From Planctomycetota bacterium (GTDB lineage: Bacteria > Planctomycetota > UBA1135 > UBA2386), in the NCBI GenBank assembly GCA_020638735.1, contig JACKHZ010000009.1, positions 442,505-506,504 on the forward strand: a DNA stretch of 64,000 nucleotides, in the 5' to 3' direction. How positions within the stretch are numbered: the stretch's first letter is position 1; the number at the start of each line of letters is the position of its first letter. The notes below the pieces were generated by a model. The model was given only the letters and a program-made list of their open reading frames with translations, was not told the DNA's origin and made no database searches. Both the position numbers and the translations under genes were made by a program. Below, in pieces: positions 1 to 27,217 of this stretch.

Positions 1-424
1 CGACCGAGCCCTGCCGCGGGATCACCGGGATCAGGTCGGCGTTCCACAGCGCGAGCGCCTGCTCGATCAGCAGCGGCCGCACGCCAGAGTGACCGAGCGC
101 CAGGTTGTGGATGCGCAGCGCGAACGCCAACCGGCTCTGCTCGATCGACAGCGGCTCGCCGACGCCGGTGGCGTGGCTCAGCAGCAGGTTCTTCTGCAGC
201 TGACCGAGCTTCTGCGACTCGATGCGCACCCCGGCGAGCTTGCCGAAGCCGGTGTTGATGCCGTACATCGTGCGGCCGCTGCGCACGGCGGCGTCGACCT
301 CGGCGCGGCAGGCCGCGACGCGGCGCTTGCTGTCCTTGCCGAGCGCGATCGTGTGGCCGGGCCGACTGAGCGCGACGAGGGTGGCGAGCGGCAGGTCGGG
401 CTCGCCGAGCAGGATCTTGGTCAT
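1..424 (-). CDS. hutH: Histidine ammonia-lyase, N-terminal part (gene continues past window start)
   Basis: Not in ORF track because it runs off the window. Reverse translation from ATG (complement of 422-424) gives MTKILLGEPDLPLATLVAL...RTMYGINTGFGKLAGVRI...LLLSHATGVGEPL...IPVIPRQGSV. This matches the YGI(N/T)TGFG and SH motifs and the lead-in to the GS(V/L)GASGDL segment of aromatic amino acid ammonia-lyases. Confidence 0.8.
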   Translation of the reverse strand, partial: MTKILLGEPDLPLATLVALSRPGHTIALGKDSKRRVAACRAEVDAAVRSGRTMYGINTGFGKLAGVRIESQKLGQLQKNLLLSHATGVGEPLSIEQSRLAFALRIHNLALGHSGVRPLLIEQALALWNADLIPVIPRQGSV

Positions 425-498: not shown

Positions 499-846
499 AT
501 GGCCAAGAAGATCGACTGGTACTACCACCGCAAGGGCTGAACGAGCTGCAAGCGCTCCGACGCGTTCCTCGGGGACGCCGGAGCCACCGTCCGTGAGACG
601 GTGGATGCACAGAAGCAGCGGTTCGCGCCCGCGGACCTCGAACAGCTGTTCGCCGACGCGGCCAAGGTCGTCGTCGCCAGGGGCAAGAAGGTGCTGACGT
701 TCACCCCCGGCGCCGCCGACTTCGACCGCACGGCGTTCGAGACGGCGGTGATCGGACCGTCCGGCAACCTGCGCGCGCCGACCGCGCGCGTCGGCAAGAC
801 CTGGTACGTCGGCTTCAGCGACGAGGCCTACGCGCCGCTCGCCTAG
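499..846 (+). CDS. ArsC/Spx-family thioredoxin-fold protein with in-frame TGA read as selenocysteine (U-T-S-C redox motif)
   Basis: ATG at 499 and TGA at 538-540 lie in the same frame as track ORF 601..846. Translation is MAKKIDWYYHRKG-U-TSCKRSDAFLGDAGATVRETVDAQKQRF...GNLRAPT...VGFSDEAY. The TGA sits where the family has the first Cys of CxxC. The nearest upstream in-frame stop is 466-468. Confidence 0.65.
554..584 (+). promoter_or_regulatory. Candidate bacterial SECIS-like hairpin downstream of the in-frame TGA
   Basis: gcuccg (554-559) pairs with cggagc (579-584), and 561-562 pairs with 576-577, leaving a G-containing apical loop. The stem starts 14 nt after the UGA. An alternative pairing is gaacg (539-543) with cgttc (563-567). 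No model was run. Confidence 0.3.
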
Positions 847-1841
847 CGCGCGCGCCACACGCCGCCGCGCAGCAGCGGCAACCACTCGTCGGCGCGGTAG
901 ACCCGCTCGAGCACGGCGCTGCCGTCGGGCGCGCCGGCGAGCCGATACAGCGCTTCGGTGACGATCTTGCGCACGAAGGCGTCGTCGTCGAGCAGCAGGT
1001 GCCACAGCGGCAACGCGTCGTGCGGCGCGCGCGACAGCATCGCCAGCTTCTGGGCGAGCTTGCGCCGCTCTTCGGCGCTGCTGCCGCCGCGCACCGACTT
1101 GTCGTAGAGCCGAACCAGCTGCCGCACATCACCCGAGGCGTCGGCGAACAGCGGAGTCCCGACGAAGCCGTCGACGACGCGCGCGCCGGCGCCCGCCGGC
1201 ACCCATGCTTCGCGCGAACCGACGGCGACCGACACGGCGCCCTCCTGCACCGTCACGGCGACCTCTCCGACGCGCTCGACGTCCACCTCGAAGCGACAGC
1301 CTCGGTCGACGATGTCCACCGCCGCGCGTTCGCCGTTCGCCGACCCGATCGGCACCTCGACGACGAAGAACCCTGCGACGACGGCCGGCGGCTCGGCGAT
1401 GTCTGCCTGCAGGCGGCCGCGGCGCAGACGCAACCGCAGCTCGTCGTCGCGCCAGTGCACGAGCTCGAGCTCGCCGCCGACGGACAGCGTGACCGTCGCC
1501 AGTTCCCCCATCGCGAGGTGCAGCGCCTGCTGCCCGGCGACGAAGTGGCGGCCGGCGTCACCGGGCCGCAGCTCGCTGCCACGCCACCAGGCCGCGGCCC
1601 CCCACGCCAGCAGCAGCGCCGCAGCCGCAGCCGCAGCTGCGAACCAACGCCACGGCCGCGCGCCGCTCGCGCGCGCCGTCAACACGTGCTCGGGCGCCGA
1701 CGAGCCGGACCAGCGCAGCGGCGCCAGCGCGCGCTCGAGCGCGGCGACGTCGGGCTCGACCGGCGCGGTGGTGTCCCACAGGTAGTCGGGGTCCCACAGG
1801 TAGTCGGTGTCCCACAGGGAGTCGGCGTCGCGCTCGTTCAT
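843..1841 (-). CDS. ECF anti-sigma factor, FecR-like, single TM helix
   Basis: Its ATG overlaps the stop of the upstream sigma gene (ATGA at 1838-1841). It has a TM segment (WRWFAAAAAAAALLLAWGAAAWW) followed by a FecR-like beta-rich region (VTLSVGGELELV...GFFVVEVPIG...VDRGCRFEVDV...VTVQEGAVSV). Confidence 0.6.
   Translation of the reverse strand: MNERDADSLWDTDYLWDPDYLWDTTAPVEPDVAALERALAPLRWSGSSAPEHVLTARASGARPWRWFAAAAAAAALLLAWGAAAWWRGSELRPGDAGRHFVAGQQALHLAMGELATVTLSVGGELELVHWRDDELRLRLRRGRLQADIAEPPAVVAGFFVVEVPIGSANGERAAVDIVDRGCRFEVDVERVGEVAVTVQEGAVSVAVGSREAWVPAGAGARVVDGFVGTPLFADASGDVRQLVRLYDKSVRGGSSAEERRKLAQKLAMLSRAPHDALPLWHLLLDDDAFVRKIVTEALYRLAGAPDGSAVLERVYRADEWLPLLRGGVWRAR
1773..1826. repeat. 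3 x 18-bp tandem repeat inside the anti-sigma N-terminus
   Basis: The units are gtcccacaggtagtcggg / gtcccacaggtagtcggt / gtcccacagggagtcggc. On the minus strand they encode DSLWDT-DYLWDP-DYLWDT. Confidence 0.9.
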
Positions 1842-23737: not shown

Positions 23738-24600
23738 TCACTCGATGACGTCGAACTCGCCGCCGAGCACGCGATCCAACCGGCCGCTGCGCCAGCCGCG
23801 CACGCGGTCGCGCACCTCCGGCGACGGCACCTCACGGTAGCGGCGCACGATCACCGGCGTCGACGCCGCGGCGGGTTGCAGCGCCGAACGCGCGAGCATC
23901 CGTTCGGCGTCGCCGGTCGCCGGCACCGGCGGCTGCGGCACGACGGTCACCCGCACGCGGCACGGGCGCACGCCGCCGCCGGCGCTGCCAGGGTCGCCGA
24001 GGTCGAACACGTGCAGGCCGTTCTCCAGCCGCAGCAGCGGCCACGCGGCGAAGCCGGTGACCGCCAACAGCGCGCCGCCGTCCGCCACGCCGCCCGCCAC
24101 GCCGCCCGCCGCGCCTCCCGCCGCGCCGCCGCCGCCCTCGAGCTCGCGCCACTGCATGCCGCGGCGCCGCGCCCAGGCCCGATACATGCCGACCAGCCGC
24201 GTAGCGAACGCGCGCGTCGCCGCCGCGTCGCCGTGCACGTCGTGCAGCGGCGCGATCGACAGGTAGGCGTCCTGCGGTTCGTCGTGCTCCACCGCGGCGA
24301 TCGCCAGCTGCAGCAGCAGCGCGCGCGCGGCGCGGTCGCGAACCTCGTCGGCGTTCGGCGCGCCGCGCTGCTGCAGCATGCCGGCGACGCGCTCGTGCGC
24401 GCCCTGCACGGCCTCTTCGATGCGGCTCTTCAGCTCGATCAGACCGAGCACCGCGTGGCGCCCGTCCGAGGTCCAGAAGTCGCGCCCGCCCATCGCCTCG
24501 TAGGCGTCGGCCTTGCGCCGCGTCCACGTCTCCTCGCCGACGCGCTGCAGCAGCTCGTCGAGCTCGCGCTGCACGGCGAGCAGCTCGTCGGCGCTGCCGA
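23738..24600 (-). other. RF2-like domain region (domains 1, 2 and 4 equivalents; catalytic GGQ domain absent)
   Basis: GRDFW resembles the RF2 PDVW/PDFW box. DAYLSIAP....AATRAFATRLVGMYRAWARRRGMQW resembles D.YL.I.AG.GG.EA.DWA.ML.RMY.RWAE..G. GFAAWPLLRLENGLHVFDL resembles G.YAYG.L..E.GVHRLVR. The end IVRRYREVPSPEVRDRVRGWRSGRLDRVLGGEFDVI resembles IR.Y......V.D.R.......VL.G.LD..I. There is no GGQ anywhere in the protein. Confidence 0.55.
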
Positions 24601-27178
24601 CCGCGTCGCGGGCCAGCTCGCGCAGGCCGCGCTGGCACGGCTCGAGCGCCGCCGCCGCGTCGGGCGCGACCTCGGCGTCGGGATCGACGAATTCGACCCG
24701 CACCGCGCGGCCGTCGCTGCGCACGAACAAGAACTGGTCGCCCGCCGGGGTGCAGTCGGTGACGATCGCAGAGGCCAGCGGCGCCAGCACGTGCCGTTCG
24801 ATCGCGCGGCGCAGCGGCCGCGCGCCGAGCGCTTCGCTGTAGCCCTGCTGCAGCAAGAACTGCAGCGCCGATTCGTCCCACTCGACCGCCCACGGCCGCG
24901 AGCGCAGGCCGCGCCGCTGCAGCACGAGGTCGAGCTCCTTCTTCAGCACGTCGCGCAGCGTGTCGCGATCGAGCGCGCGGAACACCACGACCCGGTCGAT
25001 GCGGTTCAGGAACTCGCGGCGGAACACCTCCTCGAGCGCGCGCTGCAGGTCCGGCCCGCCGCCGCCGAACCCGAGGCCGGCGCCCTCGAGGCTCTTGACG
25101 CCGAGGTTGCTGGTCAGGATCACGATCGTGTGGCGGAAGTCGGCGACGCGGCCGCGGCGATCGGTCAGCCGGCCCTCGTCGAACACCTGCAGGAACAGGT
25201 CGAACACCAGCGGGTGCGCCTTCTCGATCTCGTCGAGCAGCACCACCGAGAACGGCTGCTCGCGCACCTCGTGTACCAGCGCGCGGCGGCCGTGCACGTC
25301 GTCGGCGTCGCCGACCAGCCGCGCGATCGACTCGGGCTGCTGGAACTCGCTCATGTCGAGCCGCAGCAGCCGCTGCTCGCTGCCGAACAGGTAGGCCGCC
25401 AGCGCACGGCACAGCTCGGTCTTGCCGGTGCCGGTCGGCCCGGTGAACAGGAACACTCCGACCGGCCGCCGCGGATCGCACAGCCCGGCCTTCAGCATCG
25501 CGATGCGCTCGACGAGGCAGTCGACCGCCTCGGGCTGGCCCATGACCCGCGCCGCGAAGGCGCGCCGCACGCTGTCGAGGTCGAGGCCGTCGCGTTCGTC
25601 GAGCACGACCGGCGGCAGCCCGGTCAGTCGGCTGAGCAGCGCGATGACGTCGTCGAGCGTCGCCGGCCGCGCATTGCCGGCGCCGGCGGTGACGTGTTCG
25701 CGCAGCGCGGCGAGCGTCGACAGCAGGCTGCCGGGTCGCTGCTGGTCGACGACGTGCTGCTGCGCGCGCTGGAACACCTCGGCGAGCACCGCGTCGTCGC
25801 ACCACGGCGCGCCGCCAGCGGCGACGCCGCGCTGCAACCACTCGCGCGCCATCTGCAGCGTCTCCTCCGAGCCAGCCTCCCCGAGCCGCACGGTGACGGT
25901 CGCCTGGCGCAGCAGCGGCGACTGCCGCAGCAGCAGCTCCGCCGCCGCCGAGGTCATCGGCGCCAAGATGCGCAGCTCGCCGCGCACCAGGTGCGGCAGC
26001 AAGAGGTCGAGCAGGCCGGTCGGCGACTGCATCGTTCGGCCCGCGGTCAGGAACTCCGCGAGGTCCGGCGCCACCCACAACACCCGCGGCCGGCCGCCGA
26101 CGGCGCGCACCAGGTCGACGACGCGCTGCTCGAGCTGCCCGATGTAGCTCTGCCCGGCGAGCAGCTGCGTCGCGCCGGCGGTGAACACCGTCCAACCGTC
26201 GGCGCAGAGCTCGCGCGCCAGCCGCTCGGCGAGCACCGACTTGCCGACGCCGCGCGGACCGACCAGCAGCAGCGAGCGCGGCGGGTCGCGGTGCAGCGCG
26301 CGCTGCAGCTCGACGAACGCCTGCTCTTGCGTCGGGCTGCCGAGCGGCAGCCGGAACGACTCGTCGGCGTCGAGCACGGTCGCGAATCCGCGCAGCGCCT
26401 TGAGGTCGACGCCTGCCGCCGAGCGGTCGCCGAGCAGCGTCAGCAGCGCGCGCGCGGCGTCGCTGTCGAGCGGTTCGAGGGTGTCGCGCAGCCAACCGAC
26501 GTGGGCCTCGTCGAGACCGGTGAAGCGCCGGCGCACGGCCGGCTGCTGCAGCAGCTCGGCGTCGAGCCGTTCGCGCACGTAGCCGCGCAGCAGATCCCGC
26601 CCCATCGCCGAGCCCCACGAACCGTTGCTGGCCAGCAGCACCGCGATCGCGGTGTCGGGGGCGGCGCTGCGGGCGATGGTGCGCAGCAGGAACGTACGGG
26701 CGTAGATGCTGATGCCGTCCAGGCGCGGCACGAGTTCGTGTTCGCGCCCCTGCAGTTCGGCGCGGTGCTCGGTCGCGGCGGCGGCGGCGCAGGCCAGCGC
26801 CGAGTTGTCACCGACCAGGTAGCCGAACAGATCGTCGAGCGGCAGCGCGTCGCCGGACAGAAGCTCGACGGCGCGCGCGAACGACGGCTGGGTGCGCAGG
26901 TCGTCGGGGTGCGCGATCACCTCGTAGACGTCGTTGAGCTCGCGGGCGAGCTGCAGCAGCTGCTCGCGCGTCGCCCCGGACGAGGCCGCCGTCGCGTTCG
27001 CGGCAGCAGCGGGCGTTCCCGGCGCGCGCGACGCATCACGTTGCGACGCATCGAGGCGCGACGCATCGGGTCGCGGTGTCTCGCGACGCGGCGCCGCCGC
27101 GGCGAGGCCCTTCTTCTCCCCGAGCAGGAACCCGACGTAGCCGGCGAGGCCGGCCGCTGGCACGATCCACCACGACAT
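23738..27178 (-). CDS. Membrane-anchored double AAA+ (ClpA/B-like) ATPase fused to a GGQ-less release-factor-2-like C-terminal region
   Basis: N-terminal TM helix (WWIVPAAGLAGYVGFLL). AAA-1: LLLVGPRGVGKSVLAERLA, with weak Walker B VLWVAPDLAEF. AAA-2: FLFTGPTGTGKTELCRALA, VVLLDEIEKAHP, ARPLRRAIE. The C-terminal ~290 aa is PCRF/RF-like (see separate feature). Confidence 0.8.
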   Translation of the reverse strand: MSWWIVPAAGLAGYVGFLLGEKKGLAAAAPRRETPRPDASRLDASQRDASRAPGTPAAAANATAASSGATREQLLQLARELNDVYEVIAHPDDLRTQPSFARAVELLSGDALPLDDLFGYLVGDNSALACAAAAATEHRAELQGREHELVPRLDGISIYARTFLLRTIARSAAPDTAIAVLLASNGSWGSAMGRDLLRGYVRERLDAELLQQPAVRRRFTGLDEAHVGWLRDTLEPLDSDAARALLTLLGDRSAAGVDLKALRGFATVLDADESFRLPLGSPTQEQAFVELQRALHRDPPRSLLLVGPRGVGKSVLAERLARELCADGWTVFTAGATQLLAGQSYIGQLEQRVVDLVRAVGGRPRVLWVAPDLAEFLTAGRTMQSPTGLLDLLLPHLVRGELRILAPMTSAAAELLLRQSPLLRQATVTVRLGEAGSEETLQMAREWLQRGVAAGGAPWCDDAVLAEVFQRAQQHVVDQQRPGSLLSTLAALREHVTAGAGNARPATLDDVIALLSRLTGLPPVVLDERDGLDLDSVRRAFAARVMGQPEAVDCLVERIAMLKAGLCDPRRPVGVFLFTGPTGTGKTELCRALAAYLFGSEQRLLRLDMSEFQQPESIARLVGDADDVHGRRALVHEVREQPFSVVLLDEIEKAHPLVFDLFLQVFDEGRLTDRRGRVADFRHTIVILTSNLGVKSLEGAGLGFGGGGPDLQRALEEVFRREFLNRIDRVVVFRALDRDTLRDVLKKELDLVLQRRGLRSRPWAVEWDESALQFLLQQGYSEALGARPLRRAIERHVLAPLASAIVTDCTPAGDQFLFVRSDGRAVRVEFVDPDAEVAPDAAAALEPCQRGLRELARDAVGSADELLAVQRELDELLQRVGEETWTRRKADAYEAMGGRDFWTSDGRHAVLGLIELKSRIEEAVQGAHERVAGMLQQRGAPNADEVRDRAARALLLQLAIAAVEHDEPQDAYLSIAPLHDVHGDAAATRAFATRLVGMYRAWARRRGMQWRELEGGGGAAGGAAGGVAGGVADGGALLAVTGFAAWPLLRLENGLHVFDLGDPGSAGGGVRPCRVRVTVVPQPPVPATGDAERMLARSALQPAAASTPVIVRRYREVPSPEVRDRVRGWRSGRLDRVLGGEFDVIE
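24076..24137. repeat. Imperfect ~12-nt GC-rich tandem repeat encoding a Gly/Ala tract
   Basis: The DNA reads ...cgccacgccgcc cgccacgccgcc cgccgcgcctcc cgccgcgccgcc gccgcc... On the minus strand it encodes GGGGAAGGAAGGVAGGVADGG, inserted within the RF-like domain. Confidence 0.5.
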
Positions 27179-27217
27179 CGGCGCATCGTGGCGCGGCGCG
27201 CGGCGCGACGGAAGCGC

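What the first reader, a model, noticed from the sequence alone, without database searches (positions are those of the whole stretch)
499..846. Selenocysteine (in-frame TGA) in an ArsC/Spx-family redox protein that the ORF track truncates
Track ORF 601..846 starts at an internal Met. In the same frame, ATG 499 opens MAKKIDWYYHRKG, then TGA (538-540), then TSCKRSDAFLGDAGATVRETV, and the frame runs without another stop into the 601 ORF. A beta-strand followed by CxxC at the extreme N-terminus defines ArsC/Spx/YffB-type thioredoxin folds. Here the first Cys column is the TGA, giving U-T-S-C. The nearest upstream in-frame stop is 466-468, so 499 is the first ATG. A GC-rich hairpin (554-584) starts 14 nt after the TGA, where a bacterial SECIS is expected. 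ArsC-family selenoproteins are a known class, so this is a recoding/annotation catch rather than a new family. It does imply that the host decodes Sec.
Basis: partly seen in the sequence, partly recalled or inferred. Interest (0 to 1): 0.65.

Follow-up and report, generated by a model that had tools for sequence, protein, structure and literature searches.

The report
Mis-annotated ArsC-like selenoprotein gene
A small redox-protein gene in a Planctomycetes genome contains an in-frame TGA that almost certainly encodes selenocysteine, so public annotation cuts the protein to 81 of its 115 residues; the protein family and this kind of error are already well known.

Summary
ATG 499 opens a 115-codon frame that reads U-T-S-C at TGA 538-540 and ends at TAG 844-846.

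- **Family.** With Cys in place of the TGA, the protein matches NCBIfam NF041106, "ArsC family (seleno)protein", end to end (122.5 bits, cutoff 85).
- **Recoding.** Of 97 related loci from genomes and metagenomes, 87 have TGA at this column, 10 have TGC/TGT and none has TAA/TAG. The 13 upstream codons are under protein-level purifying selection. TGA is the normal stop in this genome (31 of 39 genes), so the recoding is local.
- **Hairpin.** The 554-584 hairpin exists. At least 6 bp of it recur at the same position in 13 of 14 close relatives and in 0 of 10 Cys-type genes. Its folding energy is not exceptional for GC-rich coding DNA, and its loop lacks the canonical G. Most of the family instead uses a textbook GUU-loop SECIS 23 nt after the UGA.
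- **Not tested.** No Sec machinery lies in the 64 kb window, and the rest of the genome could not be searched.

UxxC ArsC-like selenoproteins were described in 2008, so this is an annotation fix and not a discovery. The biochemical function remains unknown.

The parts
499..846 (+). Full gene for an ArsC-related (seleno)protein. It has 115 sense codons, including the Sec codon, followed by the stop TAG at 844-846.
   Evidence: The frame is open apart from TGA 538. The match to NF041106 covers the model end to end at 122.5 bits against a cutoff of 85. GC3 is 0.94-1.0 on both sides of the TGA.
499..537 (+). N-terminal 13 codons (MAKKIDWYYHRKG, the first beta-strand) that the public annotation omits.
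   Evidence: W, Y, R and D are invariant in 81 distinct Sec-type loci while their codons vary synonymously. Variability by codon position 1/2/3 is 0.70/0.58/1.15.
538..540 (+). In-frame TGA, read as selenocysteine. It is the first position of the U-T-S-C redox motif (538-549).
   Evidence: The same column holds 87 TGA, 9 TGC, 1 TGT and 0 TAA/TAG in 97 loci. It aligns with the first Cys of CxxC in full-length homologs and in solved ArsC and Spx structures.
554..584 (+). Candidate SECIS: a two-tier hairpin. The outer stem is 554-559/579-584, the AC bulge is 560-561, the inner stem is 562-568/572-578 and the loop UCG is 569-571.
   Evidence: Searches give -19.5 kcal/mol, with 28 nt between the UGA and the apical loop. 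A stem of at least 6 bp is centred here in 13 of 14 clade members, 0 of 10 Cys genes and 5 of 77 other Sec genes. Five pairs show changes on both sides. The loop lacks a G in its first two positions.
555..574 (+). Alternative conformer of the same region: a 6-bp stem (555-560/569-574) with the 8-nt loop CGCGUUCC (561-568). It exposes GUU (564-566) at the position that is canonical for the family.
   Evidence: It meets all four bSECIS model constraints at -16.4 kcal/mol with 20 nt spacing. Only 1.4% of synonymous recodings give a stem this long. It is not conserved in the closest relatives L001, L022 and L002.
585..603 (+). Second conserved hairpin (CACCGUC-CGUGA-GACGGUG) over the codons T-V-R-E-T-V. 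Its role is unknown.
   Evidence: It is 95% paired across the clade. It includes a C-G to U-A compensatory change at two synonymous third-codon positions. It is the only helix that RNAalifold keeps for the clade. Its apical loop lies about 51 nt after the UGA, outside the 16-37 nt SECIS range.
601..846 (+). The truncated ORF (GTG start, 81 aa) as it appears in the ORF track and in the public record.
   Evidence: P0001, an 81-aa NCBI 'hypothetical protein H6835_07075 [Planctomycetes bacterium]', is 99% identical.
2..424 (-). Divergent neighbour: the N-terminal part of an aromatic amino-acid (histidine/phenylalanine) ammonia-lyase, which runs off the window. Context only.
   Evidence: Pfam PF00221, E=5.6e-41.
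843..1841 (-). Convergent neighbour ORF (332 aa, no Pfam match). Its stop overlaps the gene's TAG in the palindrome CTAG at 843-846. Context only.

Best explanation
Positions 499-846 are one gene. It encodes a 115-residue thioredoxin-fold protein of the ArsC/Spx-related family NF041106. Its N-terminal redox motif is Sec-Thr-Ser-Cys.

**Proposed mechanism.** The UGA at 538-540 is decoded as selenocysteine by Sec-tRNA(Sec), delivered by the elongation factor SelB. SelB is recruited by an mRNA stem-loop lying immediately downstream inside the coding sequence. The best candidate for that stem-loop is the hairpin at 554-584. The mature protein would cycle between a selenol/thiol state and a selenenylsulfide state (U14-C17) and act as a small oxidoreductase. 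Its substrate is unknown.

**What is shown.**
- The frame is continuous across the TGA.
- The codon at this column alternates between TGA and Cys codons across the family.
- The peptide upstream of the TGA is under purifying selection.
- TGA is otherwise a normal stop in this genome.
- The protein belongs to NF041106.
- A position-specific hairpin is present.

**What is inferred.**
- That selenocysteine itself is the residue inserted.
- That SelB binds this particular hairpin.
- That the genome carries selA, selB, selC and selD.
- The redox chemistry.
For: **Family.** NF041106 matches at E=1.1e-35, 122.5 bits against a cutoff of 85, over model positions 1-107 of 107.

**Sec/Cys alternation.** The column holds 87 TGA, 10 Cys codons and 0 TAA/TAG in 97 loci. 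Eighty of those loci were seeded only on the C-terminal GP[ST]GNLRAP motif. Full-length homologs read CxxC there.

**Upstream codons are translated.** W, Y, R and D are invariant while their codons vary synonymously (R uses CGC/CGG/CGT/CGA; Y uses TAC/TAT). GC3 is 1.0 upstream of the TGA.

**The code is not reassigned.** TGA ends 31 of 39 predicted genes in the window.

**Family-wide SECIS.** A stem of at least 6 bp is centred on +26..28 in 62 of 77 non-clade Sec genes and in 0 of 10 Cys genes. It averages 6.9 bp natively against 3.8 bp after synonymous recoding. GUU occupies the loop position in 76 of 86 Sec loci and 1 of 10 Cys loci. This hairpin satisfies the published bSECIS model (model taken from PMC13188914).

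**Window-clade hairpin.** A stem of at least 6 bp is centred on +30..33 in 13 of 14 clade members and 0 of 10 Cys genes, Fisher p=5.6e-6. There are compensatory changes.

**Superfamily.** The family profile hits ArsC 2m46 at 1e-10 and Spx at about 1e-7, with CxxC aligned on CxxC. A confident model of a 57%-identical Cys homolog (pLDDT 93) has ArsC, Spx and YffB structures as its 16 best fold matches.

**Literature.** PMC2398784 lists 'Arsenate reductase 2, UxxC'. PMC13188914 lists NF041106 as a selenoprotein family.
Against: - No selA, selB, selD or tRNA-Sec lies in the 64 kb window, and the rest of the genome could not be searched.
- The window's minimum-energy hairpin has loop UCG with no G in the first two loop positions. 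It therefore fails one of the four bSECIS model constraints. Its closest relatives have no fully compliant hairpin at all.
- Folding energy does not discriminate. For the window, 13.5% of synonymous recodings fold as stably, and Cys-type genes give similar z-scores (Mann-Whitney p=0.84).
- RNAalifold finds no consensus SECIS, either across the 23 genome-derived loci or for helix 1 within the clade.
- No Rfam family matches the region.
- There is no experimental evidence for selenium incorporation in any member of this family.
Confidence: 0.9

Rival explanations
1. The public annotation is right. TGA 538 is a true stop that ends a 13-residue leader peptide or an untranslated stretch, and the real product is the 81-aa protein starting at GTG 601.
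For: NCBI annotates exactly this 81-aa product (P0001). No obvious Shine-Dalgarno sequence precedes ATG 499. Sec machinery has not been demonstrated for this genome.
Against: An 81-aa product would lack the first strand, the first helix and the whole CxxC motif of the fold. The upstream 13 codons are conserved at the protein level across 81 distinct loci with synonymous variation. Ten homologs have Cys codons in place of the TGA and read straight through. Codon 601 is an internal Val in every full-length homolog, and no Shine-Dalgarno sequence precedes it either.
Confidence: 0.03
2. The UGA is read through, but with a standard amino acid and not selenocysteine. This could be Cys or Trp from a near-cognate or suppressor tRNA, or a reassigned genetic code.
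For: One database homolog (P0002, JGI) is translated with Trp at this column. Sec-specific factors were not found in the window.
Against: TGA is the dominant ordinary stop in this genome, ending 31 of 39 genes, which excludes global reassignment. The codon alternates only with Cys, at the redox-active first position of CxxC, which is the classic Sec/Cys pair. A position-specific hairpin accompanies TGA forms and is absent from Cys forms. The family is curated as a selenoprotein family (PMC13188914). The Trp in P0002 is most simply an artefact of the genetic code the gene caller used (not checked).
Confidence: 0.05
3. In this particular genome the gene is a decaying pseudogene or carries a sequencing or assembly error. 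For example, it could be a relic left after loss of the Sec trait.
For: The source is a metagenome-assembled genome. The Sec trait is frequently lost in bacteria (PMC1794560).
Against: The TGA recurs in 87 independent loci, so it is not an error. The window's frame is intact on both sides with a GC3 of 0.94-1.0. The protein scores well above the family cutoff with no frameshift or other stop. The hairpin is retained.
Confidence: 0.02

Closest known systems
NCBIfam NF041106 'ArsC family (seleno)protein' (ArsC_rel_Se_1). This is the 'Arsenate reductase 2 / arsenate reductase-like protein, UxxC' of the Global Ocean Sampling selenoproteome (PMC2398784; listed in PMC13188914).
   Same: The HMM matches over its full length, above the cutoff. 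The protein has the U/C-x-x-C motif after the first strand, the conserved GP[ST]GNLRAP motif and a length of about 115 aa. Sec and Cys forms coexist. The window's gene is a member.
   Different: Nothing at the protein level. The window's clade (peptide KRSDAFL) has a SECIS-like hairpin about 4 nt further downstream with a CUC or UCG loop, where most of the family has the GUU loop.
Spx (Bacillus subtilis; PDB 1z3e, 3gfk) and YffB (1rw1) of the ArsC/Spx superfamily (PF03960, COG1393)
   Same: Both share the N-terminal strand followed by CxxC at the start of the first helix, the thioredoxin-like core and the size. Spx is hit by the family profile at E about 1e-7 and is among the top fold matches.
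   Different: Pfam PF03960 does not hit this protein. The fold match is only TM 0.5-0.55. The model shows a beta-hairpin (residues 54-67) in the middle of the protein, where I recall Spx and ArsC carrying a helical insert; that comparison was not tested here. Nothing suggests binding to RNA polymerase. Spx uses Cys and not Sec.
Glutaredoxin-coupled arsenate reductase ArsC (plasmid R773 type) and its selenoprotein form 'ArsC 1, UxxS' (PMC2398784)
   Same: It belongs to the same superfamily and has its catalytic residue at the same N-terminal position. A Sec variant exists.
   Different: ArsC uses a single nucleophile (C/UxxS) plus an arginine triad. Here the motif is a dithiol-type UxxC, which points to selenenylsulfide exchange. 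Arsenate reduction is untested and is not supported by gene context at this locus.
Bacterial SECIS consensus model (bSECISearch; E. coli fdhF as the paradigm), as summarised in PMC13188914
   Same: It is a stem-loop inside the coding sequence just 3' of the UGA. The spacing is 28 nt (allowed range 16-37), the upper stem is 7 bp, the loop is 3 nt, and the energy is far below -7.5 kcal/mol.
   Different: The minimum-energy loop (UCG; CUC in relatives) has no G in its first two positions. Only an alternative conformer, found in the window alone, meets that rule.

Membership tests
NF041106 ArsC family (seleno)protein | HMM score above the curated cutoff over the full model | tested here: met
   122.5 bits against a cutoff of 85, model positions 1-107 of 107, E=1.1e-35, with Cys substituted for the TGA.
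NF041106 ArsC family (seleno)protein | U/C-x-x-C motif directly after the N-terminal strand, with Sec and Cys forms aligned at the same column | tested here: met
   The window reads U-T-S-C. The column holds 87 TGA and 10 Cys codons. CxxC is nearly invariant in 64 full-length homologs.
NF041106 ArsC family (seleno)protein | Conserved C-terminal core motif GP[ST]GNLRAP | tested here: met
   The window has GPSGNLRAP. The motif is invariant or nearly so in alignments A2 and A4.
ArsC/Spx/YffB superfamily (Pfam PF03960) | Match to the Pfam ArsC model | tested here: not met
   There is no Pfam hit at E<=1 for either the full or the truncated protein. Some homologs do carry precomputed PF03960 hits.
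ArsC/Spx/YffB superfamily (Pfam PF03960) | Profile-level homology to solved members, with the active-site motif aligned | tested here: met
   The family profile hits 2m46 at 1.1e-10, Spx (3l78, 1z3e) at about 1e-7, YffB 1rw1 at 2e-3 and 3gkx at 4e-3. The matches are full length and CTTC aligns on CTTC/CTSC.
ArsC/Spx/YffB superfamily (Pfam PF03960) | Thioredoxin-like ArsC/Spx fold | tested here: met
   An AlphaFold2 model of the 57%-identical Cys homolog P0006 has pLDDT 93.3. The 16 best Foldseek PDB hits are all ArsC, Spx or YffB, at TM 0.44-0.56 and E of 2e-3 to 2e-2. This was tested on a homolog and not on the window protein itself, and the similarity is moderate.
Arsenate reductase (functional class) | Catalytic arginine triad and arsenate-dependent activity, or an ars operon context | not tested
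   No ars genes lie nearby. The arginine triad was not mapped. Activity cannot be tested with these tools.
Bacterial selenoprotein gene (SelB/SECIS recoding) | In-frame UGA aligned with Cys in homologs, with conserved coding sequence on both sides | tested here: met
Bacterial selenoprotein gene (SelB/SECIS recoding) | Downstream bSECIS that meets the consensus model: loop of 3-9 nt, stem of 4-16 bp, G in the first two loop positions, 16-37 nt spacing, and MFE of -7.5 kcal/mol or lower | tested here: inconclusive
   The conserved minimum-energy hairpin 554-584 meets every constraint except the loop G. An alternative conformer (555-574) meets all four, but it is not conserved in the nearest relatives. 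The hairpin is specific in position to Sec forms but unexceptional in energy.
Bacterial selenoprotein gene (SelB/SECIS recoding) | The genome encodes selA, selB, selD and tRNA-Sec | not testable with these tools
   None is present in the 64 kb window.
Bacterial selenoprotein gene (SelB/SECIS recoding) | Selenium physically incorporated at the UGA position | not testable with these tools
   This needs 75Se labelling or mass spectrometry.

The most novel reading that the evidence does not exclude
The window's Planctomycetota clade has replaced the family's canonical SECIS. That element has a 7-8 bp stem and a GUU loop 23 nt after the UGA.

The clade instead has a structurally different element: a two-tier hairpin with an AC bulge or internal loop and a G-less CUC or UCG apical loop 27-28 nt after the UGA. 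It may act together with the conserved second hairpin at 585-603.

That would imply lineage-specific co-evolution of SelB and SECIS, and a class of bacterial SECIS outside the current consensus model.
Probability: 0.25. Interest if true: 0.35.

Novelty: new member of a known kind. Interest (0 to 1): 0.17.

Why it matters
**For annotation.** The public record for this gene, and for dozens of relatives of 81-102 aa, is an N-terminally truncated "hypothetical protein" with its active site missing. Restoring the Sec codon gives the correct 115-aa redox protein. It also marks the organism as a probable selenium user.

**For biology.** The value is modest. Family NF041106 has been known as a selenoprotein family since the 2008 ocean metagenome survey, and its function is still unknown.

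**What this analysis adds.**
- In this sample the Sec form greatly outnumbers the Cys form (87 to 10).
- The family-wide SECIS is a sharply defined GUU-loop hairpin, and it also constrains the encoded peptide to A-Q-G-F-L.
- One clade, which includes this window, carries a shifted hairpin that does not fit the consensus SECIS rule.

Tried and rejected
- **RNAalifold, 23 genome loci.** It gave no consensus structure because the pairing register differs between clades. On the clade alone it kept only the second hairpin.
- **Rfam.** Scans at gathering threshold and at E<=10 gave only chance miRNA and sRNA hits.
- **Generic folding-energy tests.** These were dinucleotide-shuffle z-scores, a within-gene control region and synonymous recoding of the MFE. 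None separates Sec genes from Cys genes, so I reject stability as evidence. A position-specific stem test did work.
- **Other selenoprotein candidates in the window.** I looked for same-frame segments joined by a single TGA. All seven junctions are ordinary gene ends.
- **Sec machinery.** A Pfam scan of about 40 predicted genes in the window found none (one search failed on a frame error and was repeated).
- **Conserved neighbours across 100 loci.** The two largest clusters were antisense shadow ORFs of the gene itself. No neighbour is conserved across the family.
- **Source contig lookup.** The look-up of encoding contigs for P0001 found nothing on record.

Full report
**1. The observation**

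The sequence reads exactly as described.
- An in-frame TGA sits at 466-468, and no alternative start codon lies before ATG 499.
- ATG 499 opens MAKKIDWYYHRKG. TGA follows at 538-540, then TSCKRSDAFLGDAGATVRETV. The frame stays open until TAG 844-846.
- The listed ORF 601-846 is in the same frame. It begins at a GTG, which in the full-length protein is an internal Val and not an internal Met.
- The 13 codons before the TGA have GC1/GC2/GC3 of 0.38/0.31/1.00, and the 101 codons after it have 0.67/0.53/0.94, in a 72% GC window. Both sides therefore look coding in this frame.
- RNA folding of 530-610 gives the hairpin 554-584 and a second hairpin at 585-603.

**2. What the protein is**

With Cys in place of the TGA, the 115-aa product matches NCBIfam NF041106, "ArsC family (seleno)protein". 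The match covers model positions 1-107 of 107 at 122.5 bits against a curated cutoff of 85.

Pfam's ArsC model PF03960 does not hit it, so I tested superfamily membership independently.
- A profile built from 14 full-length Cys homologs hits a putative arsenate reductase (2m46, E=1e-10), Spx (3l78, 1z3e and others, about 1e-7), YffB (1rw1) and ArsC-related structures. The matches are full length, and CxxC aligns on CxxC.
- An AlphaFold2 model of the 57%-identical Cys homolog P0006 is confident (pLDDT 93.3, pTM 0.84).
- The 16 best Foldseek PDB hits for that model are all YffB, Spx or ArsC-family proteins, followed by glutaredoxins. TM is only about 0.5-0.55.
- The model has a beta-hairpin at residues 54-67. 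From memory, Spx and ArsC carry a helical insert in that region; I did not test this comparison.

The protein is therefore a divergent ArsC/Spx-related thioredoxin-fold protein, as the NCBIfam name says.

**3. Is the TGA decoded?**

A database search returned 389 homologs. They fall into a class of about 114-120 aa with G-C-x-T/S-C, and a class of about 81-102 aa that begins just after that motif. The best hit, P0001, is the public annotation of this very gene: an 81-aa "hypothetical protein H6835_07075 [Planctomycetes bacterium]".

I fetched 23 genome loci and 80 metagenome loci. The metagenome loci were seeded only on the C-terminal motif GP[ST]GNLRAP, so they are unbiased with respect to the N-terminus.
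- Of 97 classifiable loci, the column holds TGA in 87, TGC in 9, TGT in 1, and TAA or TAG in none.
- Upstream of the TGA, across 81 distinct sequences, W, Y, R and D are invariant while their codons vary synonymously. Arg uses all four CGN codons and Tyr uses TAC and TAT. Variability is concentrated at third codon positions.
- Five further truncated database proteins close to the window were traced back to their DNA. All have the same upstream TGA and N-terminus.
- TGA ends 31 of 39 predicted genes in the window, so the genetic code is not reassigned and the recoding must be local.

Taken together, this is the classic Sec/Cys signature at the first position of a CxxC redox motif.

**4. The hairpin**

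This is the part that needs nuance.

*What did not work.*
- A single consensus fold across the 23 genome-derived loci does not exist.
- Rfam has no match.
- Folding energy is uninformative in this GC-rich coding context. Dinucleotide-shuffle z-scores do not separate Sec from Cys genes (Mann-Whitney p=0.84).
- Synonymous recoding does not separate them either. Mean z is -0.84, -0.62 and -1.01 for the window clade, other Sec genes and Cys genes. For the window, 13.5% of recodings fold as stably as the native sequence.

*What does discriminate is position.*
- In most of the family a 7-8 bp stem closes a GUU loop that starts exactly 26 nt from the U of UGA, for example GCCCAGGG-GUU-CCUUGGGC.
- A stem of at least 6 bp centred there occurs in 63 of 86 Sec loci and 0 of 10 Cys loci (Fisher p=8e-6). 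GTT sits at +26..28 in 76 of 86 Sec loci against 1 of 10 Cys loci.
- The native stem averages 6.9 bp against 3.8 bp after synonymous recoding. It is individually significant in 46 of 77 loci.
- This element meets all four constraints of the published bSECIS model as summarised in PMC13188914: loop of 3-9 nt, stem of 4-16 bp, G in the first two loop positions, 16-37 nt spacing and MFE of -7.5 kcal/mol or lower. Compliance is 62 of 86 Sec loci against 3 of 10 Cys loci.

*The window belongs to a clade that does something different.* The clade has 14 distinct sequences with the peptide TSC[KQ]R[SA]DAFL.
- It has a two-tier hairpin with an AC bulge or internal loop and an apical loop (CUC, UCG or CUGAA) at about +30.
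- A stem of at least 6 bp centred on +30..33 occurs in 13 of 14 clade members, 0 of 10 Cys genes and 5 of 77 other Sec genes (Fisher p=5.6e-6 and 5.9e-11).
- Column-wise, the window's own structure is 72% paired across the clade, with 5 pairs changed on both sides. The register drifts by 1-2 nt between subclades.
- Under synonymous recoding the stem is not individually significant (median P 0.28). It is largely written into the clade's conserved peptide, so RNA-level and protein-level selection cannot be separated here.
- The loop lacks a G in its first two positions, so the conserved hairpin meets three of the four bSECIS constraints.
- The window alone also has an alternative conformer (555-574, loop CGCGUUCC, -16.4 kcal/mol) that meets all four and exposes GUU at the family-canonical position. 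Its nearest relatives cannot form it.
- The second hairpin (585-603) is 95% paired, with a compensatory change at two synonymous sites. It lies too far from the UGA for the SECIS model, and its role is unknown.

**5. Sec machinery and context**

The window contains no tRNA at all and no Rfam family at gathering threshold. Among about 40 predicted genes none is SelA, SelB or SelD. Same-frame TGA junctions elsewhere in the window are ordinary gene ends.

That the host decodes Sec therefore remains an inference.

The neighbours are a divergent aromatic amino-acid ammonia-lyase and a convergent ORF with no family match. Neither suggests a function. Across relatives no neighbour is conserved family-wide. 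A ThiF/MoeB-rhodanese gene lies directly upstream in 9-11 loci, and a SAM methyltransferase lies downstream in 5.

**6. Comparison with what is known**

- ArsC-like selenoproteins were reported in bacterial genomes in 2006 (PMC1794560).
- The 2008 Global Ocean Sampling selenoproteome lists "Arsenate reductase 2, cd03032, UxxC" with 42 Sec and 238 Cys sequences (PMC2398784).
- Reviews from 2022 and 2026 list "Arsenate reductase-like protein, COG1393 / NF041106, UxxC" (PMC9312934 and PMC13188914).

The window's gene is a member of that family, and public annotation truncates it. No member has been characterised experimentally, so the redox role of the U-x-x-C couple is inferred from the superfamily.

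**7. Verdict**

This is a true recoding and annotation catch in a known selenoprotein family.
- Novelty: new member of a known kind.
- Interest: low, about 0.17.
- The only mildly unusual point is the clade-specific SECIS-like hairpin that does not fit the consensus rule.

Noticed in passing
L095:104-1408 (+), L090:1790-2647 (+); also L036, L038, L046, L054, L075, L018 and L019: In 9-11 related loci a ThiF/MoeB-rhodanese gene (PF00899 + PF00581) lies directly upstream of the ArsC-like Sec gene. In most of them it is on the same strand. In 5 loci a Methyltransf_11 gene lies downstream. MoeB is itself a known selenoprotein family, so a link to a sulfur or selenium relay is possible. Neither gene is present at the window's locus.
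   Followed up: partly
window 585-603: A second hairpin (CACCGUC-CGUGA-GACGGUG over the codons T-V-R-E-T-V) is 95% paired across the clade. It includes a C-G to U-A swap at two synonymous third-codon positions. It lies too far from the UGA for the SECIS model, and its function is unknown.
   Followed up: partly
L025-L103, +18 to +36 from the UGA: The family's GUU-loop SECIS forces the peptide A-Q-G-F-L-G/E onto Sec-type proteins. Cys-type homologs are variable over the same residues (for example AEEYRT, AQTAIG, AKAYTE). This is a clear case of an RNA element constraining protein sequence.
   Followed up: partly
P0001, P0003-P0015 and many others: Dozens of database proteins of 66-102 aa in this family look like N-terminally truncated gene calls of Sec forms. 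All five distinct ones checked at the DNA level are. One JGI entry (P0002) shows Trp at the Sec column, probably because the gene caller used a genetic code in which TGA encodes Trp.
   Followed up: partly
window 843-846: The plus-strand gene's stop (TAG 844-846) and the stop of the convergent minus-strand ORF (843-845) overlap in the palindrome CTAG.
   Followed up: no
window 1773-1829 (- strand ORF 843-1841): An 18-nt tandem repeat (3.2 copies, 92% matches) encodes a repeated D-x-D-Y-L-W-D motif at the N-terminus of the convergent 332-aa ORF. That ORF has no Pfam match. By eye, an ECF-sigma-like ORF follows it, which I did not verify.
   Followed up: no
window 23741-27217 (-): A large ORF of 1159 aa combines AAA_16/nSTAND-like NTPase signatures (residues about 300-380) with a ClpB-type AAA_2 domain and a D2-small domain. 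This is an unusual domain combination.
   Followed up: no
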